Shown here: in pieces, positions 6,972 through 39,113 of the stretch | How positions within the stretch are numbered: position 1 is the first letter of the stretch | Layout: every line of letters starts with the position of its first letter | Origin: a virus | Taxonomy: Duplodnaviria > Heunggongvirae > Uroviricota > Caudoviricetes | DNA length: 39,408 nt | Direction: 5' to 3' (one strand) | Virus record (IMG/VR): IMGVR_UViG_2917849834_000006 | Location: 1 to 39,408 of that record | The notes under the pieces: generated by a model | Told to the model about the DNA's origin: nothing | Database searches by the model: none | The model's input: only the letters and a program-made list of their open reading frames with translations | Position numbers and translations under genes: made by a program

Positions 6972-7804
6972 ACAGTTTAACGGCAAATAATCGTTTGTCG
7001 CAACAGCTGGTGGTCAGTGTCGCTGAACACCTGTTGTTACGGCATGAATGCAGATTACCAAATCACCTGGCTGTAAGTAACCACAGAGAACTTTACCTGA
7101 CTGTGGGGGGCGAGTTGTGCAGGAACTTAACCGCTGGTTTCGTGACGGAAGAGGGCTTTATGTCCATGTTATTCGTTGGGAGCCAGAAACACAGCGCGTT
7201 ATCTATCTTCGCAAAGACTACCCGCATGAGTGCTTTAGTCCTTTGTGGAAATTCAGGCGTGATTTTGTTGAGTGTGAAGGACCACCAGCACATTGATTCT
7301 GCCATTCTGGGACGTTACACTGTTCAGGCACCTTATAAAGCGGGTGCCGGGATTGGCGTCCTGGAATTGCATACGGCGACAATTGGCGCGTTAGCGTCTT
7401 TTTTGTTGCTACAACTCAGCTATACCCAAATTATGGTGGGCTGGGTGGGGGCACCGAAAGGTGCGCCGGTTTCCGTATGCGCCGGTTACGCCAACCCTGC
7501 TCAGTTCACCACCAGCGAAATTGGCGTTTCCGGTGGTGGAAGTTATCCATTGCATACGGAGGCTGCCATCATGGCTACTGTCCCAGCCCTCTCTCGTCTG
7601 AATGATGACGACTTACATAAACTCAGTTATGTAACAACTGCACTACGTGCTCTGCGCAAGGTAACTCTTTCGGATCCGCAGGCGCATCAGGTTCTGGTAG
7701 AAACCCTTCTTAACTTGCAGGCTGAACGTATTCGTCTGGCGGATAAGGCTAATTTTCATATTCACCGTCTCCTTAATATCAGCGGAGGGCATCGTCATGC
7801 TTAA
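6968..7804 (+). CDS. Hypothetical protein (early right operon)
   Basis: 278-aa ORF with overlapping stop/start coupling; an alternative-frame protein-like ORF at about 7078-7260 leaves the reading frame in this segment uncertain. Confidence 0.4.
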   Translation: MNSLTANNRLSQQLVVSVAEHLLLRHECRLPNHLAVSNHRELYLTVGGELCRNLTAGFVTEEGFMSMLFVGSQKHSALSIFAKTTRMSALVLCGNSGVILLSVKDHQHIDSAILGRYTVQAPYKAGAGIGVLELHTATIGALASFLLLQLSYTQIMVGWVGAPKGAPVSVCAGYANPAQFTTSEIGVSGGGSYPLHTEAAIMATVPALSRLNDDDLHKLSYVTTALRALRKVTLSDPQAHQVLVETLLNLQAERIRLADKANFHIHRLLNISGGHRHA

Positions 7805-13693: not shown

Positions 13694-13719
13694 AGGCCGC
13701 CTACGGGCGGCCTTTTTTA
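13694..13719 (+). terminator. Rho-independent terminator upstream of the holin gene
   Basis: AGGCCGCC-tacg-GGCGGCCT followed by a T6 run. Confidence 0.65.
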
Positions 13720-13805
13720 TGCGCACTTCTGCAAATCAGCGTTATAACCAGCTTCTTTCCCTTTTACTCGTTGCACTTCCGGTAACCGGAGGTGGGAATT
13801 ATGAA

Positions 13806-14141
13806 ATGCACAACGATCCTCATTCCTGGCCTGACTTACTTGAATTGTTACAGAGCTGGTGGCGTGGAGACACACCACTGGGCGCAGTGATTATGTCGAT
13901 TGTTATGGCTGGATTGCGCATTGCCTATTTTGGCGGTGGTGGTGGCTGGAAGCGAAAAACGCTCGAGATTTTGCTCTGTGGTGCTCTTACGCTGACTTTT
14001 GCATCCGCGCTTGAGTATGTCGGATGGCCTAAATCGCTTTCTGTTGCCATTGGTGGCGGCGTTGGGCTGATCGGTGTCGATGCTATTCGTGGGGCTGCAA
14101 TGCGAGTAATCGGTAACAAGTTTGGTAGCTCGAAGGAGTAA
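13806..14141 (+). CDS. Holin (lambda S-like, three TM segments)
   Basis: Three hydrophobic segments and charged C-terminus; immediately upstream of the endolysin gene; start uncertain (ATG at 13806 preferred over track start 13719). Confidence 0.7.
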   Translation: MHNDPHSWPDLLELLQSWWRGDTPLGAVIMSIVMAGLRIAYFGGGGGWKRKTLEILLCGALTLTFASALEYVGWPKSLSVAIGGGVGLIGVDAIRGAAMRVIGNKFGSSKE

Positions 14142-14144
14142 TTT

Positions 14145-14621
14145 ATGCAGGTGTTAAATTCCCAGCGTAAAGCTTTCCTTGATATGGTGGCATGGTCAGA
14201 AGGAACGGATAACGGGCGACAACCGACACGTAACCACGGTTATGACGTTATTGTCGGTGGAGAACTCTTCACTGATTACTCCGATCACCCTCGCAAACTT
14301 GTCACGCTAAACCCGAAACTCAAATCAACAGCTGCAGGCCGTTATCAACTTCTTTCACGCTGGTGGGATGCTTACCGCAAGCAGCTTGGGCTGAAAGACT
14401 TCTCTCCCAGAAGCCAGGATTCAGTGGCATTACAGCAGATTAAAGAGCGTGGCGCTTTACCGATGATTGATCGCGGTGATATCCGTCAGGCTATCGATCG
14501 TTGCAGCAATATCTGGGCGTCATTACCCGGTGCAGGTTACAGTCAGTATGAACATAAAATCGGTGACCTGATTGCCCGATTTAAAGAGGCTGGTGGGGTG
14601 GTAAATGAAGTTGAGTTATAA
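14145..14621 (+). CDS. R: Endolysin, lambda R-type lytic transglycosylase
   Basis: 158 aa; near-identical over most of its length to lambda R as recalled (…NQRKAFLDM…AWSEGTDNGRQ…YDVIVGGELFTDYSDHPRKLV…). Confidence 0.95.
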   Translation: MQVLNSQRKAFLDMVAWSEGTDNGRQPTRNHGYDVIVGGELFTDYSDHPRKLVTLNPKLKSTAAGRYQLLSRWWDAYRKQLGLKDFSPRSQDSVALQQIKERGALPMIDRGDIRQAIDRCSNIWASLPGAGYSQYEHKIGDLIARFKEAGGVVNEVEL

Positions 14622-14994
14622 GCTGGTTATCTCTGCTTTCTTCGTTACTGTCGTCAGTTCTATCATCTGGTCAGCCAACTACTACAGCAAATATCAGCAC
14701 GAAAAGAAACGTGCTGATGATGCTGCACGAAATGCTGAATCAGCAACTGCTATTACCAATAACGTCCTGCAATCAGTGCAAATCATAAATACAGTTCTGG
14801 AGGCTAACCAGCATGCAAAACAGCAGATCGCACTGGAGTCACAGAGAACCCAGGAAGATATCAAAGCGGCTGTTGCGGATGATGATTGTGCTTCACGTCC
14901 TGTGCCTGCTGCCGCTGCTGACCGGTTGCGGAAATTCGCGAACGGTTTACGTGAGCGCTCCGGTGGCACCACTGCCAGCCAGTCTGACTTCTGA
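14605..14994 (+). CDS. Rz-like inner-membrane spanin
   Basis: N-terminal TM segment, coiled-coil-like periplasmic region, position after the endolysin. Confidence 0.7.
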   Translation: MKLSYKLVISAFFVTVVSSIIWSANYYSKYQHEKKRADDAARNAESATAITNNVLQSVQIINTVLEANQHAKQQIALESQRTQEDIKAAVADDDCASRPVPAAAADRLRKFANGLRERSGGTTASQSDF

Positions 14995-15154
14995 TACTCC
15001 TGTACCGTTTATACCCAATCCGCTGACGTATGGTGCCAGTCTGGAGTTGAATGTGAGTCTGTTGTCAGCGTTGGGACAATGCAATATTGACAAAGCGGGG
15101 ATTAGAAAGATAGAGGCGAGCCGGTCAGGTAGAAATGAATCAGGCTCAAAGTGA
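14879..15154 (+). CDS. Rz1-like outer-membrane lipoprotein spanin, starts inside Rz in the +1 frame and extends beyond it
   Basis: Signal peptide with lipobox LLTGC and proline-rich mature region. Confidence 0.65.
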   Translation: MMIVLHVLCLLPLLTGCGNSRTVYVSAPVAPLPASLTSDTPVPFIPNPLTYGASLELNVSLLSALGQCNIDKAGIRKIEASRSGRNESGSK

Positions 15155-24175: not shown

Positions 24176-24556
24176 ATGAAATCTATGTCTAAAAATATCC
24201 GCAATCTGGCACTGGCGACGATGTCTGGTTTTCGCCACAAAACAGTTGATGTTCCTGAGTGGGAAGGTACAACGGTTGTATTACGGGAACCCTCTGCAGA
24301 AGCCTGGTTACGTTGGCAGGAGATCGTTAAAACCGGAGATGATGATACACCGTTATCAGTTGCGGAGCGTGCCCGCCGAAATCTGGAAGCGGATGTTGAA
24401 CTGTTCATCGATGTTCTGTGTGATACCGGGATGCAACCCGTGTTTTCAGCGGATGATCGGGAGCAGGTACTTGCAGTATATGGTCCGGTACATGCGCGAC
24501 TGCTTCGTCAGTCACTGGAACTGATCACTGATGCTGAAGTTATTAAAAAAAAGTAG
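24176..24556 (+). CDS. Tail assembly chaperone (gpG-like)
   Basis: Position before the tape measure; ends at a slippery A-run. Confidence 0.75.
   Translation: MKSMSKNIRNLALATMSGFRHKTVDVPEWEGTTVVLREPSAEAWLRWQEIVKTGDDDTPLSVAERARRNLEADVELFIDVLCDTGMQPVFSADDREQVLAVYGPVHARLLRQSLELITDAEVIKKK
24545..24553 (+). other. Programmed -1 ribosomal frameshift site (AAAAAAAAG) joining the G-like and T-like chaperone frames
   Basis: The -1 frame is open from 24547 through 24858; conserved G/GT arrangement upstream of tape measure genes. Confidence 0.65.
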
Positions 24557-24858
24557 CACTTCCGGGTATTCGTTTTCTGATGATGCTGGCGCTCAGGATG
24601 GGGCGCACATTGTCAGAGTTACGCCGGGAAATGTCTGCATCGGAAATCATGATGTGGGCAGAATTTGACAGGATCAGCCCGCTGGGTGACGAGCGGGCTG
24701 ATATCCGGGCTGCCCAGATAGTTTCTGCAGTTTACGGGGCGCAGGGTGTCAAAGTTCCACTGAATGAAGCGATTCTTCAGTGGGAGGTCGTTCCTGCAAA
24801 TAATATTAAAGATCCGTTCACAGCGTTTGAAAATGCATTATTTGCAGCGACACAATGA
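24547..24858 (+). CDS. Tail assembly chaperone gpT-like extension (made as a G-T fusion by -1 frameshift)
   Basis: ORF in the -1 frame relative to G with no independent RBS. Confidence 0.7.
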   Translation, partial: KKVALPGIRFLMMLALRMGRTLSELRREMSASEIMMWAEFDRISPLGDERADIRAAQIVSAVYGAQGVKVPLNEAILQWEVVPANNIKDPFTAFENALFAATQ

Positions 24859-24913
24859 TCTTCTTACTTTACTGGATTATGATTCCGATTTTTATTAAGT
24901 AAATAAGGAGATA

Positions 24914-25258
24914 TTGATGGAAGTTATTCTTATTGCGCTAGTCCTGGGGTTAATTCCGGCTATTATCGCGCAAAGTAAAGGGCGTTCATTTTGGGGATGG
25001 TGGATATACGGAGCCTTACTCTTTATCGTTGCCCTAGTTCATTCACTTGTAATCCAAAAAGATGAAAAAACGCATGAGCAACAAATGGTGAGCAATGGCA
25101 TGAAAAAATGCCCTTACTGTGCGGAGTTGATCAAAGAAGAAGCCATTAAGTGTAAGCATTGCGGTAGTGATTTAACACATAACCCTGATAGTACCGTTTC
25201 GCAAAAAACGGATGATGAATATCTTGAAGAAGCAAGGCGTAAGGCTGGGCTTCTTTAA
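24914..25258 (+). CDS. Moron: small membrane protein with C-terminal zinc-ribbon (CPYC…CKHC)
   Basis: Low-GC insert between the chaperone and tape measure genes with its own AT-rich upstream region, RBS and terminator; two N-terminal TM helices. Confidence 0.55.
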   Translation: MMEVILIALVLGLIPAIIAQSKGRSFWGWWIYGALLFIVALVHSLVIQKDEKTHEQQMVSNGMKKCPYCAELIKEEAIKCKHCGSDLTHNPDSTVSQKTDDEYLEEARRKAGLL

Positions 25259-25262
25259 AAGC

Positions 25263-25289
25263 AAAAACCGCTTCGGCGGTTTTTTTTTG
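25263..25289 (+). terminator. Rho-independent terminator after the moron
   Basis: AACCGC-ttcg-GCGGTT followed by T9. Confidence 0.7.
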
Positions 25290-25303
25290 CCTGGAGAACG
25301 AGA

Positions 25304-28300
25304 ATGGCGTCACTACGCGAACTGATTATAAAAATCTCGGCAAATTCGCAGTCATTCCAGTCAGAAATTGCGCGAGCTTCACGTATGGGACAGGAGTACT
25401 ACCGTACCATGCAGAACGGAGGTCGACAGTCTGCAGCTGCATCCCGTGATATGCGGCGAGCACTGGCAGAAGTGACCGAGCAGATAAATACGGCGAAGTC
25501 TTCGGCAATGAATATGGCTGGCGCATTTGCCGGTGCTTTTGCCACTGGACATCTTATATCTCTTGCGGATGAATGGAGCTCAGTAAATGCCCGTCTGAAG
25601 CAGGCCACGCAGTCCAGCGATGATTTCCAGGCATCACAGCGCGAATTAATGGCGATCAGCCAGAGAACGGGTACTGCTTTTGCTGATAACGCCAGTCTTT
25701 TTGCACGTTCGGCTTCTTCCATGCGGGAATATGGTTACAGATCTGAGGAAGTACTGAAAGTTACCGAGGCCATTTCTACAGGATTGAAATTGTCCGGAGC
25801 CAGTTCTGCGGAAGCCAGCTCGGTGATCACTCAGTTCAGCCAGGCACTGGCGCAAGGGGTTCTGCGCGGTGAAGAGTTTAATTCAGTAAATGAAAGCGGT
25901 GATCGTGTTATTCGTGCTCTGGCTGCAGGAATGGGGGTTGCCCGTAAAGATCTGAAGGCAATGGCGGATGATGGAAAGCTGACCGCCGATAAGGTTGTTC
26001 CTGCACTGATTAGCCAGCTTGGTACGCTGCGGGATGAATATGCAGCCATGCCTGATACCGTATCATCCTCTGCAACCAAAGTTGAAAACGCCTTTATGGC
26101 CTGGGTTGGTGGTGCGAATGATGCCAGCGGTGCAACGAAAACGCTTACCGGAATAATGAATGGTGTTGCGAATAATATTGATACGGTTGCCACGGCGGCG
26201 GGAGCTCTGGTTGCAATTGGTGTAGCCCGATATTTTGGCAATATGGCGTCTTCTGCGGGCTCTGCAACTGCCGGGTTAATTACTGCTGCCAGAAACGAAG
26301 TGGCTCTTGCTGAGGCACAGCTCAGAGGGACACAGATAGCAACAGCCAGAGCGCGGGCGGCATTGTATCGTGCGCAGCAGGCGGTTGTGGCTGCCCGTGG
26401 TACAGAAAAACAGGCTGCAGCAGAAGCGAAACTGGCAACCGCACAGGCTTCACTTACCCGTAATATTGCTGCCAGAACAGCGGCACAGGCAACGCTGAAT
26501 AACGTTACGTCAGTTAGTAGTCGGTTGTTAAGCGGTGCTCTGGGGCTGGTTGGTGGTGTGCCTGGACTTGTCATGCTGGGGGCGGCGGCCTGGTACACAA
26601 TGTATCAGAACCAGGAGCAGGCCAGAGAATCAGCGCGTCAGTATGCCGCAACAATCGATGAAATTCGCCAGAAAACGTCTGCAATGTCACTTCCTGAAGC
26701 GGCAGATAATGAGGAAAAGACGCGGCAGGCTCTGGAGGAGCAGAACAGGTTAATTGACGAGCAGAAAAGTAAGATTAAATCCTTACAGGAAAAAATTGCT
26801 GGCTATCAGTATGTCCTGGCAAACCCGGGCTGGACAACCGATAACGGTTTTATGATTAACCACATGACGTCGGTGAAAACTGTCACAGAAGGGCTTGCAG
26901 AAGCAACAAGTCAGCTGGCTGTTGAGCAGTCCCGACTTTCCGGAATGCAGGAAAAAGCCCAGTCAATCCAGGATGTGCTTGCCGGGCTGGAAGAACGACG
27001 AGTGGCGCTGATCCGCCAACAGGCAGCGGAACAAAACAAAGCATATCAGTCATTACTGATCATGAATGGCCAATATACCGAGTTTAATCGTCTTCTTGGG
27101 CTTGGTAATGAATTACTTCAGCAGCGACAGGGGCTGGTGAATGTACCGTTACGGCTGCCACAGGCTGCTCTGGATGATAAACAGCAGAACGCGCTGAATA
27201 ACACTGAGCGAGAGCTGACCTTATCCCGTCTGAAGGGGGAAGCGCGTGAGCGTACTCGTCTGGGCTATGTAGCGGATGATCTCGGTTTTGTGGGGGATGC
27301 CTATCAGACGGCAAGGCAAACTTATATCAACAACGCGCTGGAAGCATGGCGTAACAACCAGGCGAATAAGCCAAAGGTACGTGGTGGAAAATCGGAAGCA
27401 GAAAAAACGGAAGATGCTTATAACAGACTGATTAAACAACAAAAAGAACAAATAGCACTGGCAGGACAGAATACTGAACTGGCTAAGATGAAATACCAGG
27501 TCAGCCAGGGCGAATTATCAACCTTATCAGAAGCGCAGAAACAAACCCTTTTACAGAATGCAGCACTCATCGACCAGAAAAAAATTCGTGAGCAAATTGC
27601 TGCTTATGAAAGCAGCCTGGCGGACAGTAACGCCAGTGTCAGGGCATCAAATGAGGCTCAGTTGTTAGGGTATGGAGACGGAACACGAATACGTGAGCGG
27701 CTTCAGGAAATGTGGAACATCCGACAGGAGTTTGAGCAGAAAAATAATGAGTTGCTGAGACAGTACCAGACCGGAGAAATCGAAGAAGCCCTGTGGAAAC
27801 AGGAAAAAACGCTGAATGAAAAATATCTGGAGGAGCGTCTCAACGATCAGCAGGATTATTATGCAAAGGCCGATGCTTTACGCAGTAACTGGAATGCCGG
27901 GCTCAAAGAGGGGCTGACGAACTGGGCAGACAGTGCCACTGATTATTCTTCACAGGCGGCAGACGTGGTCGTTTCCACTATGGATGGTCTGGTTTCAAAT
28001 ATTTCCGAGGCACTGGCCGGAAACGTTGTGGACTGGAGAAACTGGGGGAGTTCGATCCTTCAGGAAGTTTCAAAAATCCTGATGAACGTGGCCATTGTTA
28101 ACGGGCTGAAATCACTCTCCGGGACAATGTCGGGAGCGGGGGGATGGATTGGTAGTGTTGGCGACTGGCTTTCCGGTGCAGTAGCGAACGCAAAAGGCGG
28201 TGTTTACACATCGGCAAATCTGAGTGCTTACAGTAACACCATTGTGGATACGCCGACGTACTTTGCTTTTGCGAAAGGTGCCGGGCTGATGGGGGAAGCC

Positions 28301-28546
28301 GGACCTGAAGCTATCATGCCGCTTACGCGGGCGGCGGACGGTTCTCTTGGGGTCAGGGCTATTGGCAATGTGAATGGTGGTGGCGGATTTGTCTATTCTC
28401 CCGTGTATCACATCAATATTCAGAATAAAGGGAGCAATGGCGAGATTGATACGCAGTCAGCCAGGGGGCTGGTGGATCTGATCGACAGCAGGGTTGTGTC
28501 AATTATGCAGTCATCACGTCGGGACGGAGGATTATGCAGTGCCTGA
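25304..28546 (+). CDS. Tail tape measure protein
   Basis: 1080 aa, Ala/Gln-rich coiled-coil, position before M-L-K-I-J. Confidence 0.9.
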   Translation: MASLRELIIKISANSQSFQSEIARASRMGQEYYRTMQNGGRQSAAASRDMRRALAEVTEQINTAKSSAMNMAGAFAGAFATGHLISLADEWSSVNARLKQATQSSDDFQASQRELMAISQRTGTAFADNASLFARSASSMREYGYRSEEVLKVTEAISTGLKLSGASSAEASSVITQFSQALAQGVLRGEEFNSVNESGDRVIRALAAGMGVARKDLKAMADDGKLTADKVVPALISQLGTLRDEYAAMPDTVSSSATKVENAFMAWVGGANDASGATKTLTGIMNGVANNIDTVATAAGALVAIGVARYFGNMASSAGSATAGLITAARNEVALAEAQLRGTQIATARARAALYRAQQAVVAARGTEKQAAAEAKLATAQASLTRNIAARTAAQATLNNVTSVSSRLLSGALGLVGGVPGLVMLGAAAWYTMYQNQEQARESARQYAATIDEIRQKTSAMSLPEAADNEEKTRQALEEQNRLIDEQKSKIKSLQEKIAGYQYVLANPGWTTDNGFMINHMTSVKTVTEGLAEATSQLAVEQSRLSGMQEKAQSIQDVLAGLEERRVALIRQQAAEQNKAYQSLLIMNGQYTEFNRLLGLGNELLQQRQGLVNVPLRLPQAALDDKQQNALNNTERELTLSRLKGEARERTRLGYVADDLGFVGDAYQTARQTYINNALEAWRNNQANKPKVRGGKSEAEKTEDAYNRLIKQQKEQIALAGQNTELAKMKYQVSQGELSTLSEAQKQTLLQNAALIDQKKIREQIAAYESSLADSNASVRASNEAQLLGYGDGTRIRERLQEMWNIRQEFEQKNNELLRQYQTGEIEEALWKQEKTLNEKYLEERLNDQQDYYAKADALRSNWNAGLKEGLTNWADSATDYSSQAADVVVSTMDGLVSNISEALAGNVVDWRNWGSSILQEVSKILMNVAIVNGLKSLSGTMSGAGGWIGSVGDWLSGAVANAKGGVYTSANLSAYSNTIVDTPTYFAFAKGAGLMGEAGPEAIMPLTRAADGSLGVRAIGNVNGGGGFVYSPVYHINIQNKGSNGEIDTQSARGLVDLIDSRVVSIMQSSRRDGGLCSA

Positions 28547-37213: not shown

Positions 37214-38590
37214 CTATGATATTCCTGAAATATCCTCTTCAAGTTCTTTTACTGATTTCGCAATTTTAAATTTAAATTTCCTCTCTATTTCACTATTGCT
37301 AAGTTTTTTTTCCTTCTCTTTCCCTATCCACATAGAAACAAGTTCTCGTTTCTGAGATATATGTAGATTGTCAAAGTTAGGTATGTATTTAAAAGTCTCC
37401 GCTCTACCTCTGCGGAGTTCATAGAAAGTTTTAATCAAAGACTTTGGTTTTATTTCTGATAAAAGGCCGAATCGGCGGATAAGATTATTGATAGTATGAT
37501 TAACAGAGCGAAGTTGAGCTGTTGAGGTTATTTGTGAGAAGTACGATACCCATCCCAATCGTTTACCTTCAAACACACATCCCGTAATTCTGAGATTTAG
37601 TTTCCACTGACAATATGCAACAGCTCGTTCTTTATCGCGCTTACTTTTAGCTTGTAGTAGAGCGTGCCTATATGCAGTAAAAATTTTTGCTAAGGATGAC
37701 TCAAATCTAAGAATGCTCTCATGTTTTATCAATAATTCTCGATTTTCTATGTGGTATCCCAAAAAGTTAAAACTTTCATCCAAGCTGCCTACTTTGGATT
37801 TTGAGTTCTCTTCATTTAATGGATGTGGGTTTAAATTTAATGATTGAAGCTTATCAATGATATGAGATGTTATTTTTGTTGCTTGATATTTGGGCGTTAA
37901 AATAAGAATGTCATCAACGTATCGCATGTACCATATGCCATGCATTTTATTGATTTCATCATCGAAATTAGATAGTGATATTTCAGCTAAAATGTTTGAT
38001 ATCGCTAATCCCTGAGGTACTCCTCTGGTATTATTAGGGATACCTTTGCTTCCTGTACTTCCACTTACAGTAGGTACGATTAATGATGATGTTATTAACT
38101 GTCTAATTTCTTTTTTTCTAATCTTATTTTTTATTGCATTAAATATCAATTTATGTTCAATTGAAGGATAGAAACTTTTAAGATCTATTTTTGCATATTC
38201 AGCATATAGACTGCAGTTTAATGCTTCTTTCAATGAGTCAATTACTGTATGTGGTAGTTTTAATCTGGAATTAGGATATATTTCCGTAAGGCATTCACAG
38301 AGAGCCCTAAGAGTAATTCTGTCCCTAGCAGTTGGTATGGAAATCTGTCTGGGGGTAGAGTTAGCCCCTTTAGATATTAATTTTTCTTTATATGCTGTAA
38401 ATTTATAATTGCCAGAATTAACCTTTTCAAAAATGAAAGTGATCTCATTGTTTATTGTTAAATCAAGTTTTGATGGGCGAATCCGATCTATGCCAATCGC
38501 TCCTGATTCTTTGATTTTTTCAGTGTATACTTTTAGAAGGTTTTTTTTCGAGAATGACTTTTTAAAAATTCTACTTGCAGTCATAGTCAA
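37214..38590 (-). CDS. Reverse transcriptase (prokaryotic defence-type; retron/Abi/DRT-like, family unassigned)
   Basis: RT motifs read in translation: PRQISIPTARDRITLRAL, IDLKSFYPSI, GVPQGLAISNILAEI, WYMRYVDDILIL (YVDD catalytic box), FLGYHI; C-terminal extension of about 150 aa; about 30% GC; track start is TTG, an ATG lies at 38584. Confidence 0.9.
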   Translation of the reverse strand: MTMTASRIFKKSFSKKNLLKVYTEKIKESGAIGIDRIRPSKLDLTINNEITFIFEKVNSGNYKFTAYKEKLISKGANSTPRQISIPTARDRITLRALCECLTEIYPNSRLKLPHTVIDSLKEALNCSLYAEYAKIDLKSFYPSIEHKLIFNAIKNKIRKKEIRQLITSSLIVPTVSGSTGSKGIPNNTRGVPQGLAISNILAEISLSNFDDEINKMHGIWYMRYVDDILILTPKYQATKITSHIIDKLQSLNLNPHPLNEENSKSKVGSLDESFNFLGYHIENRELLIKHESILRFESSLAKIFTAYRHALLQAKSKRDKERAVAYCQWKLNLRITGCVFEGKRLGWVSYFSQITSTAQLRSVNHTINNLIRRFGLLSEIKPKSLIKTFYELRRGRAETFKYIPNFDNLHISQKRELVSMWIGKEKEKKLSNSEIERKFKFKIAKSVKELEEDISGIS

Positions 38591-39113
38591 TCCAAAGATA
38601 TATTAATGGTAGTATATAAAGTGCGGCAGTAATAAATATTCGAAGTAATATCCATAAATTAACAATTATTTTTTCTTTTTGTGTGGGGAGCCTCGTCGTA
38701 AGTCCAACTTGAGTTACCCTTGAAACTTTATCATCTATCTCACGATGATTCTCAACCTCATTGAGCAAATTAAAATATTTTTCTTTCTGTTCAGGAGTTA
38801 ATTGTTGGCCGTTGGTAATGTCAAAATAGAGTCGCTGTAGTGCAATATAATTCCTTCTCATGGCTATTGCTCGACCACGAAAATCTAGGTTAGATACGAT
38901 CAGAGAAATACCTAGTAGAGCCACTGAAAGTATCGCTGCAACGATATCTGTATTATCTCCTAGAACTTTTGGAAATCGTAACGTTACAATTGAAAGCACC
39001 GCACTCAATATAGCATACCAAACGAGGATTAATTGAGAGTGTTTTTCAAGCCATTCTAGTCGATGGTGCGCTTGGATACGGGCTTTATATGTAAACCAAA
39101 TATTGTCATGCAT
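38571..39113 (-). CDS. Small multi-pass membrane protein co-transcribed upstream of the RT (candidate effector)
   Basis: 180 aa; three hydrophobic helices (about residues 27-45, 57-77, 152-176) around a charged middle region; AGGA RBS; ends 8 nt before the RT ATG; same low GC. Confidence 0.7.
   Translation of the reverse strand: MHDNIWFTYKARIQAHHRLEWLEKHSQLILVWYAILSAVLSIVTLRFPKVLGDNTDIVAAILSVALLGISLIVSNLDFRGRAIAMRRNYIALQRLYFDITNGQQLTPEQKEKYFNLLNEVENHREIDDKVSRVTQVGLTTRLPTQKEKIIVNLWILLRIFITAALYILPLIYLWIDYDCK

What the first reader, a model, noticed from the sequence alone, without database searches (positions are those of the whole stretch)
24859..25295. Moron with its own promoter region and terminator between tail chaperone and tape measure genes
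A low-GC insert encodes a 114-aa protein with two N-terminal TM helices and a C-terminal zinc-ribbon (CPYC…CKHC), bracketed by an AT-rich upstream region and a strong intrinsic terminator. Autonomous cassettes like this in tail operons are often lysogenic-conversion or superinfection-exclusion genes. I do not recognise this combination.
Basis: partly seen in the sequence, partly recalled or inferred. Interest (0 to 1): 0.55.

Follow-up and report, generated by a model that had tools for sequence, protein, structure and literature searches.

The report
Membrane zinc-ribbon moron before tape-measure gene
A small accessory gene sits in an E. coli prophage at the site where phage HK97 carries its classic "moron" gene 15; it encodes an uncharacterised inner-membrane zinc-ribbon protein that most plausibly blocks DNA injection by rival phages, but that function has not been tested.

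Summary
Window 24917-25258 (+) encodes a 113-aa protein (not 114) with two transmembrane (TM) helices and a Cys4 zinc ribbon. The region is 39.8% GC against 49.9% for the window. It lies between tail chaperone G/T and an HK97-type tape measure protein (TMP).

It is a genuine moron. The close relative phi467 lacks it, and 57 of 102 sampled HK97-type T-TMP junctions are empty. A promoter-like element travels with the gene: GTGAC(A/T)-17-TAGGAT in most relatives, ATGATC-17-TATGAT here.

One correction: the terminator hairpin is not cassette-specific. It precedes the TMP gene in 49 of 50 empty junctions with 31-80 nt gaps.

This is the site of HK97 gene 15, the archetypal moron and a proven superinfection-exclusion protein. 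The cargo here is unrelated to gp15. It is the commonest cargo at this hot spot (15 of 45 occupied junctions), and nearly all the other cargo carries signal-peptide, lipoprotein or TM features.

The gene is under strong purifying selection (dN/dS about 0.08-0.11). The family is large, spans many phyla, and has no Pfam model for its hairpin and no literature. Pseudomonas phages carry an Imm_superinfect + zinc-ribbon protein at the same site.

Best guess, about 40%: an injection-blocking exclusion protein. Verdict: new member of a known kind, moderate interest.

The parts
24176..24556 (+). Tail assembly chaperone G (upstream flank, not part of the insert)
   Evidence: PF06222 Phage_TAC_1, E 3.4e-57
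24580..24858 (+). T part of the G-T frameshift chaperone. Its last ~70 nt (24787-24858) already diverge from the empty-site relative phi467, so the left recombination boundary lies inside T.
   Evidence: PF06223 Phage_tail_T, E 2.1e-17. The phage hits stop at query position 286-287, i.e. window ~24786. Alignment A1.
24855..24860 (+). Candidate -35 (ATGATC). It overlaps the TGA stop of T. It corresponds to GTGAC(A/T) or TTGATA in relatives.
   Evidence: Comparative upstream alignment and hexamer scoring
24878..24883 (+). Candidate -10 (TATGAT, 5 of 6), 17 nt after the -35 and 33 nt before the ATG. It corresponds to the conserved ATTAGGATT (TAGGAT) of relatives.
   Evidence: At least 32 of 46 distinct upstream sequences have (G/T)TGA(C/T)(A/T)-17-TAGGAT, with the -10 ending 27-32 nt before the start codon
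24906..24911 (+). Shine-Dalgarno AAGGAG
   Evidence: Read from the sequence
24917..25258 (+). Moron CDS, 113 aa: two-TM hairpin, Cys4 zinc ribbon and short C-terminal helix
   Evidence: (phrog_8436, E 3e-51)
24920..24976 (+). TM helix 1 (residues 2-20; invariant G11, P14, A15, A18)
   Evidence: AF2 model; alignments A2 and A3
24977..24988 (+). Hairpin loop K21-G22-R23-S24 (invariant or nearly invariant)
24989..25054 (+). TM helix 2 (residues 25-46; invariant F25, W28, W29, Y31, G32, A39, H42)
25100..25174 (+). Zn_ribbon_3 domain (residues 62-86; C65, C68, C79, C82)
   Evidence: PF13248, E 1.1e-8, above the gathering score; the four Cys are invariant
25263..25288 (+). Terminator-like hairpin (AAAAACCGC-UUCG-GCGGUUUUU) with a T9 run. 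It is a resident feature of the T-TMP junction and serves as the moron's terminator.
   Evidence: I8. Present in empty sites.
25304..28546 (+). Tape measure protein, HK97 type (downstream flank)
   Evidence: PF06120, PF20155, PF09718; 56% identity to HK97 gp16

Best explanation
Shown:
- This is a moron, an accessory transcription unit in the late tail operon of an HK97-like E. coli prophage, inserted between the stop codon of tail chaperone T and the hairpin that precedes the tape measure gene.
- It encodes a 113-aa protein with two predicted TM helices and a Cys4 zinc ribbon.
- It is under purifying selection.
- It is dispensable for the tail module, because close relatives lack it.

Inferred from sequence conservation:
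- It carries its own sigma-70-type promoter (-35 ATGATC at 24855-24860, -10 TATGAT at 24878-24883), so it can be made from the repressed prophage.
- Its transcripts stop at the resident hairpin at 25263-25288, which keeps the TMP gene silent in lysogens.

Inferred from domain fusions, moderate confidence:
- The protein is an inner-membrane hairpin with both ends in the cytoplasm. The invariant SKGRSF/WW loop faces the periplasm and the zinc ribbon faces the cytoplasm.

Inferred by analogy, not tested:
- Like HK97 gp15 at the same site, and like T4 Imm, it acts as a superinfection-exclusion protein. It would stop incoming siphophages after adsorption by interfering with the TMP-dependent channel, or with its host inner-membrane partner, so that DNA does not reach the cytoplasm.
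For: Moron status:
- phi467 goes from T to the TMP gene in 45 nt and lacks the gene.
- 57 of 102 sampled junctions are empty and 45 are occupied.
- GC is 39.8% against 49.9%.
- A promoter-like element is conserved with the gene across loci whose T genes differ.

Precedent:
- HK97 gene 15 occupies the same position in front of a TMP that is 56% identical.
- gp15 is a prophage-expressed inner-membrane protein that blocks genome injection, with specificity mapping to the tail (PMC3594210).

Envelope targeting of the hot spot:
- Nearly all cargo found at the 45 occupied junctions carries TM, signal-peptide or lipoprotein features. This family accounts for 15 of the 45.

Parallel architecture:
- Pseudomonas phage YMC11/02/R656 gp065 is PF14373 Imm_superinfect (1.6e-18) plus Zn_ribbon_3. 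It also lies between the chaperone and the TMP gene, and it aligns to this protein at 3e-14.
- T4 Imm has been reported to bind the T4 TMP directly (preprint 10.64898/2026.03.06.709160).

The gene is real and its product is constrained:
- dN/dS is 0.078 and 0.11 in the two pairs where dS was not saturated.
- The hairpin motif is invariant.

Cargo behaviour:
- The gene also occurs at another tail-operon moron cluster, next to an integrase, and in chromosomal islands.

The phage has its own lysis cassette at about 13.7-15.2 kb, so a holin role is not needed.
Against: - There is no experimental or expression evidence of any kind.
- There is no hit to any PADLOC defence model apart from spurious zinc-ribbon matches.
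- The hairpin does not match PF14373: none for this protein and none among the 25 most frequent families in 150 relatives.
- Profile comparison is weak: 55% probability over 21 columns against the Imm + zinc-ribbon family, and 5.6% against T4 Imm itself.
- The inferred topology (N-in) would be opposite to that reported for T4 Imm.
- The hairpin motif is almost invariant across many bacterial phyla and occurs in non-phage contexts. That fits a conserved cellular partner better than a fast-evolving phage TMP target.
- The protein sequence has co-diverged with T and the TMP (r 0.79 and 0.61). That pattern is equally expected from linkage alone.
Confidence: 0.4

Rival explanations
1. It is a lysogenic-conversion or host-physiology gene unrelated to phage exclusion. 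The prophage captured a small membrane-anchored zinc-ribbon protein of cellular origin. It acts on a conserved host membrane component (for example a transporter, envelope stress or lipid-linked process) and changes host fitness in some other way.
For: - The family spans many phyla and occurs in chromosomal, non-phage contexts with no conserved neighbours.
- The hairpin motif is nearly invariant over 2786 representative clusters, which suggests a conserved cellular partner.
- HK97 gp15 itself derives from the cellular YebO family (PMC3594210), so capture of host membrane proteins at this site has precedent.
- Other morons such as lambda Lom have non-defence roles (PMC3594210).
Against: - In Enterobacterales the gene is overwhelmingly prophage-borne and sits at the gp15 site: all 77 of the 80 best IMG/VR loci in which the gene and both neighbours could be read.
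- It is the commonest cargo at a hot spot whose one characterised cargo is an exclusion protein.
- A parallel Imm-domain + zinc-ribbon protein occupies the same site in Pseudomonas phages.
Confidence: 0.3
2. It is an abortive-infection or membrane-damaging effector. The cytoplasmic zinc ribbon senses a phage product or incoming DNA. The hairpin then oligomerises and depolarises the membrane, killing the infected cell rather than excluding the phage.
For: - Small two-TM effectors are common in defence systems. This same window carries a DRT UG17 reverse transcriptase with a SLATT two-TM partner.
- Zinc ribbons often bind nucleic acids or proteins.
- SHOCT and second zinc-ribbon tails hint at oligomerisation.
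Against: - No PADLOC effector model matches.
- It is a single gene with no partner.
- Constitutive expression of a pore former from a prophage promoter would be costly.
- Nothing in the sequence indicates a trigger.
Confidence: 0.1
3. It has a lytic-cycle function for the phage itself: an accessory factor for TMP or tail assembly, or a holin/antiholin-like protein (two TM helices plus a charged C-terminus), expressed with the late operon.
For: - It lies inside the late tail operon and would be co-transcribed during lytic growth.
- The architecture superficially resembles class II holins.
- The sequence co-diverges with T and the TMP.
Against: - It is absent from close relatives with the same T and TMP (phi467; 57 of 102 junctions empty).
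- At the same site it is replaced by unrelated lipoproteins.
- It is found outside phages.
- The window has its own holin, endolysin and Rz/Rz1 cassette at about 13.7-15.2 kb.
Confidence: 0.05

Closest known systems
HK97 gene 15 moron (gp15, YebO-like superinfection-exclusion protein)
   Same: - Identical genomic position: between the G/T tail chaperone and an HK97-type TMP (56% identical).
- Small, low-GC insert followed by a hairpin terminator just before the TMP start.
- Predicted inner-membrane protein.
- Absent from relatives.
   Different: - No sequence similarity (BLASTP E = 5).
- gp15 is 62 aa, with one TM helix, and belongs to PF13974 YebO. This protein is 113 aa with two TM helices and a Cys4 zinc ribbon.
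- The exclusion phenotype of gp15 is proven. This protein's function is untested.
T4 Imm / Pfam PF14373 Imm_superinfect
   Same: - Small inner-membrane protein built on two hydrophobic segments joined by a short basic loop.
- Shared local motif P-x-x-I-A-x-x-(K/R)-G (T4 P26...R33-G34; here P14...K21-G22).
- T4 Imm blocks genome injection and is reported to bind the TMP.
   Different: - No PF14373 match.
- hhalign gives 5.6% probability against T4 Imm and 55% over 21 columns against Imm + zinc-ribbon proteins.
- The second hydrophobic segment is not alignable.
- The inferred topology is opposite.
- T4 Imm has no zinc ribbon.
Imm_superinfect + Zn_ribbon_3 proteins of Pseudomonas prophages (e.g. 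YMC11/02/R656 gp065, annotated 'immunity to superinfection')
   Same: - Same order of parts: two-TM hairpin, then a CPYCAE...C..CG zinc ribbon.
- Same position between chaperone and TMP.
- BLASTP 3e-14, 30% identity.
   Different: - Its hairpin is a bona fide PF14373 domain with a longer loop and second helix, and it has an extra C-terminal domain (195 aa in total).
- Its name comes from the Pfam domain. No experiment was found.
Other prophage inner-membrane exclusion proteins (P22 SieA; E. coli DicB acting on ManYZ/PtsG)
   Same: They are prophage-encoded and act at the inner-membrane step of genome entry (papers listed).
   Different: The sequences, sizes and genomic locations are unrelated.

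Membership tests
Moron (Juhala/Hendrix sense) | Extra DNA that is absent from otherwise similar phage genomes | tested here: met
   phi467 and 10 other E. coli phages match up to ~24786 and lack the gene. 57 of 102 HK97-type junctions are empty.
Moron (Juhala/Hendrix sense) | Base composition different from the neighbouring genes | tested here: met
   39.8% GC against 48-51% for G, T and the TMP; lowest 6.4% of windows
Moron (Juhala/Hendrix sense) | Own promoter | tested here: inconclusive
   A conserved -35/17/-10 element is found at a fixed distance from the ATG in at least 32 of 46 distinct relatives, with the window version ATGATC-17-TATGAT. The generic scan is not above chance, and activity was not measured.
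Moron (Juhala/Hendrix sense) | Own terminator | tested here: not met
   A hairpin with a T-run follows the gene. The same hairpin precedes the TMP gene in 49 of 50 empty junctions with 31-80 nt gaps. It is shared, not cassette-specific. It did move with the gene in Klebsiella phage locus L004.
Moron (Juhala/Hendrix sense) | Expression from the repressed prophage | not testable with these tools
   Needs RNA-seq or 5'RACE of a lysogen
HK97 gp15 / YebO (PF13974) | Sequence or profile similarity to gp15/YebO | tested here: not met
   BLASTP E = 5. PF13974 matches gp15 but not this protein.
HK97 gp15 / YebO (PF13974) | Blocks genome injection of HK97-like phages | not testable with these tools
   Requires plating-efficiency and DNA-entry assays
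Imm_superinfect (PF14373, T4 Imm) | Match to the Pfam model | tested here: not met
   Not listed even at E <= 1. It is not among the 25 most frequent families found in 150 hairpin relatives.
Imm_superinfect (PF14373, T4 Imm) | Profile-profile similarity of the hairpin alone | tested here: inconclusive
   hhalign gives 55% probability, P 1.2e-4, over TM1 and loop only. Against T4 Imm it gives 5.6%.
Imm_superinfect (PF14373, T4 Imm) | Binds the tape measure protein | not testable with these tools
   Reported for T4 Imm in a preprint. Needs co-purification or two-hybrid assays here.
Zn_ribbon_3 (PF13248) | HMM score above the gathering threshold and four conserved Cys | tested here: met
   34.6 bits against 27. 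C65, C68, C79 and C82 are invariant. Zinc binding itself was not tested.
PHROG 8436 (phage protein family, unknown function) | Full-length profile match | tested here: met
   E 3.2e-51, residues 1-111 on profile positions 1-108 of 110
Class II holin | Located in the lysis cassette and needed for lysis | tested here: not met
   The gene lies in the tail operon. A separate holin/endolysin/Rz/Rz1 set is read at about 13719-15154. The gene is absent from close relatives.

The most novel reading that the evidence does not exclude
The IPAxIAxSKGRSFxxWWxYG hairpin plus zinc ribbon would define a large, unrecognised class of injection-blocking immunity proteins. The class has 2786 representative clusters, no Pfam model for the hairpin, and is the commonest cargo at the classic T-TMP moron site. 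Members would work through a conserved host inner-membrane partner of siphophage tape measure proteins rather than by binding the variable TMP itself. That would explain why the periplasmic loop is invariant across phyla.
Probability: 0.25. Interest if true: 0.6.

Novelty: new member of a known kind. Interest (0 to 1): 0.4.

Why it matters
The step at which siphophage DNA crosses the inner membrane is poorly understood. HK97 gp15 and T4 Imm are among the few tools that probe it.

If this protein blocks injection, it would be a third, sequence-unrelated handle on TMP-mediated channel formation. It is present in about 0.8% of complete E. coli genomes (43 of 5426) and in many Enterobacterales prophages, so it would matter for phage-therapy host range.

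The survey also shows that the T-TMP junction of HK97-like tails is a busy hot spot. About 44% of sampled junctions were occupied, almost all by envelope-type proteins. That gives a ready list of candidate exclusion or conversion genes.

If the protein has no phage phenotype, the finding is simply one more uncharacterised moron.

Tried and rejected
- Generic promoter scan: not above chance. Replaced by comparative analysis.
- PADLOC, NCBIfam and PDB sequence searches: only spurious zinc-ribbon matches such as HEase, TcaA N-terminus and bL32.
- Foldseek against viral structures: only unnamed 'zinc-ribbon containing' phage proteins. The model has mean pLDDT 75.6 and pTM 0.36.
- Homology to gp15: none.
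- Homology of the hairpin to PF14373 / T4 Imm: not established.
- Transposon-like ends or target duplications around the insert: none.
- Rfam and tRNA scans: nothing in the region.
- Conserved gene neighbours outside Enterobacterales: none.
- Horizontal shuffling of the gene between TMP types: no discordant pairs found. The gene co-diverges with its neighbours.
- Literature searches for the family, its accessions, and 'zinc ribbon' with exclusion: nothing. Cumby et al. 2012 (PMC3430355) is not held.
- Topology from the positive-inside rule: ambiguous. Domain fusions favour a cytoplasmic zinc ribbon, but PF14373 relatives suggest the opposite orientation.
- A linker-fused AlphaFold model with the TMP was considered and not run. 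The T4 preprint reports that such predictions did not match the experimental density.

Full report
**What is there**

- T is 24580-24858 (PF06223). G is 24176-24556 (PF06222). The TMP is 25304-28546 (PF06120, PF20155, PF09718).
- The TMP is 56% identical to HK97 gp16, so the window is an HK97-like siphophage prophage of E. coli.
- The ORF reported from 24914 (TTG, 114 aa) most likely starts at the ATG at 24917, 5 nt after AAGGAG. That gives 113 aa, as RefSeq annotates the identical gene, 'zinc ribbon domain-containing protein' WP_021543566.1.
- AlphaFold2 with a 26-sequence alignment predicts helices at 2-20, 25-46 and 50-59, a small beta ribbon at 62-73, and a helix at 99-109. Mean pLDDT is 75.6.
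- Pfam Zn_ribbon_3 matches residues 62-86 above its gathering score.
- GC is 39.8% against 49.9% for the window.
- A hairpin (CCGC-UUCG-GCGG, extended by A:U pairs) with nine T follows at 25263-25288.

**It is a real gene and a real insertion**

- The protein has at least 1761 homologues. The core, residues 1-86, is highly conserved.
- dN/dS against relatives is 0.078 and 0.11 in the two pairs where dS was not saturated.
- Phage phi467 and ten other E. coli phages match the window only up to about 24786. They pass from T to the TMP gene in 45 nt without the gene.
- I sampled HK97-type junctions with a degenerate TMP-start pattern in IMG/VR. Of 102 usable loci, 57 had a T-to-TMP gap of at most 80 nt and 45 carried inserted DNA.
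- No repeats or transposon-like ends flank the insert.
- The left boundary of divergence lies inside the 3' end of T.

**Promoter and terminator**

- The generic promoter scan was not above chance.
- The upstream regions of 46 distinct relatives share one element at a fixed place. It reads GTGAC(A/T) or TTGATA, then 17 nt, then TAGGAT, with the -10 ending 27-32 nt before the start codon. The -35 often contains the stop codon of T.
- The window's version is ATGATC (24855-24860), 17 nt, then TATGAT (24878-24883), ending 33 nt before the ATG.
- This conservation persists where the T genes differ, so it is not a coding constraint. It supports a promoter that belongs to the cassette. Activity remains untested.
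- The terminator is a different matter. The same kind of hairpin plus T-run sits directly before the TMP start in phi467, in 49 of 50 empty junctions with 31-80 nt gaps, and in 42 of 45 occupied ones. The stems differ by compensatory changes.
- The hairpin is therefore a resident feature of the junction. Morons insert upstream of it and use it.
- In one Klebsiella phage (L004) the gene sits in another context and has taken the hairpin and a few bases of the TMP leader with it.

**The site is the classic moron site**

- HK97 gene 15 lies between the tail chaperone and the TMP. The word moron was first used for it.
- gp15 is expressed from the prophage and inserts in the inner membrane. It blocks genome injection by HK97 and HK75, with specificity mapping to the tail. 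It derives from the cellular YebO family (PMC3594210).
- The protein here is unrelated to gp15.
- In my sample, the 45 occupied junctions carried this family 15 times and gp15-like proteins twice. The rest were a variety of lipoproteins and signal-peptide proteins, and nearly all cargo had envelope-targeting features.
- Of the 80 best IMG/VR relatives of this gene, the gene was located in 78. All 77 of those with readable flanks place it between a T-sized ORF and, where the contig continued, a TMP-sized ORF of 707-1176 aa.
- Its sequence co-diverges with T (r 0.79) and with the TMP N-terminus (r 0.61), with no discordant pairs. It is an old resident of this site in part of the lineage, not a frequent hopper.
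- More distant members occur elsewhere: in another tail-operon moron cluster between K and I/J (L089), beside an integrase (L093), in a Pantoea chromosomal island (L090), and across many bacterial phyla without conserved neighbours.

**Relation to T4 Imm**

- Pseudomonas phage YMC11/02/R656 gp065 is also encoded between chaperone and TMP. It is a PF14373 Imm_superinfect hairpin followed by the same type of zinc ribbon, and it aligns to this protein at 3e-14.
- That architecture is widespread.
- A 2026 preprint reports that T4 Imm binds the T4 TMP and that R33 and W50 matter for function.
- The local motif P-x-x-I-A-x-x-(K/R)-G is shared: T4 P26...R33-G34, and here P14...K21-G22.
- Homology of the hairpins is not established. 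PF14373 does not match this protein. It is not among the 25 most frequent families found in the top 150 hits of a hairpin-only profile search.
- hhalign gives 55% probability over 21 columns against the Imm + zinc-ribbon family and 5.6% against T4 Imm.
- The hairpin is its own domain, with 2786 representative clusters at E <= 1e-3, and no Pfam family was found for it.

**Topology**

- Several relatives continue after the zinc ribbon with a third TM helix and an S/T/P-rich, Cys-containing domain. K/R residues lie on the N-side of that third helix (P0385, P0316, P0361, P0370, P0292).
- This places the zinc ribbon in the cytoplasm and the invariant SKGRSF/WW loop in the periplasm.
- PF14373 proteins with an N-terminal zinc ribbon have an extra TM helix before the hairpin, and T4 Imm is reported to be N-out. 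That implies the opposite orientation for that family.
- I leave topology at moderate confidence.

**Function**

- The best-supported reading is a prophage-expressed inner-membrane protein that blocks genome entry of superinfecting siphophages at the TMP/inner-membrane step. It rests on position, the precedent of gp15, the envelope nature of the cargo at this hot spot, and the parallel Imm + zinc-ribbon proteins.
- None of this is a test. I put it at about 0.4.
- The main rival, at about 0.3, is a captured cellular membrane protein with a host-physiology role. It is favoured by the pan-bacterial spread and the invariance of the hairpin motif.
- An abortive-infection effector (about 0.1) and a lytic-cycle role (about 0.05) are less likely. 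The phage has its own lysis cassette, and close relatives do without the gene.
- No defence-system model, solved structure or paper covers the family.

**Verdict**

The finding is a correct recognition of a moron at the archetypal moron site. It carries an uncharacterised but very common cargo family. It is a new member of a known kind and a good experimental candidate, not a surprise in kind.

Noticed in passing
window 37214-39113 (- strand): A defence-associated reverse transcriptase system lies downstream of the tail fibre genes in a region of about 30% GC. It consists of RT_UG17 (458 aa, PADLOC E 1.9e-158) and a SLATT two-TM partner (180 aa, E 1e-56). It is a second cargo module of this prophage.
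   Followed up: partly
window 7328-7516 (+): Rfam matches above gathering score: isrK Hfq-binding RNA (7328-7404) and C4 antisense RNA (7429-7516), adjacent to each other.
   Followed up: no
window 25263-25288; loci L096-L215: A terminator-like hairpin plus T-run directly precedes the TMP start codon in 49 of 50 'empty' HK97-type T-TMP junctions with 31-80 nt gaps and in 42 of 45 occupied ones. The stems differ by compensatory changes (CCGCTTCGGCGG, CCCGCGGCTGCGGGC, CCTGCTGTGGCAGG). Its role inside a late operon is unexplained: it could be a dosage attenuator for the TMP, or a landing pad or scar of morons.
   Followed up: partly
loci L096-L215 (T-TMP junctions): The other cargo at the same hot spot is a zoo of small envelope proteins. 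One recurrent lipoprotein family has the motif KDPDSAKF...YVCG..N(A/S)KNS(F/Y)GAYTG (L185, L196, L156, L209, L126, L210, L204, L144, L098, L100). There are also Cys-rich secreted proteins (L130, L177, L200) and several unrelated lipoproteins.
   Followed up: no
L006 3015-3779 (Pseudomonas phage vB_PaeS-D14C): Two unannotated ORFs lie between T and the TMP gene: a 138-aa lipoprotein and a 103-aa two-TM + zinc-ribbon protein with yet another hairpin sequence. The deposited record annotates only a 58-aa minus-strand ORF there.
   Followed up: partly
L241, L273, L093: In three deltaproteobacterial or Desulfobaccales genomes, the family member lies directly downstream of a DUF2130 or RmuC-type gene. 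This is the only hint of a recurring neighbour outside phages.
   Followed up: no
window 24917-25258, residues 92-113: The C-terminal tail KTDDEYLEEARRKAGLL is conserved among the 113-aa forms. It weakly matches the C-termini of two unrelated PHROGs (19323 and 5031; E about 1e-3). It resembles the end of SHOCT domains, which 4 of 150 hairpin relatives carry.
   Followed up: no
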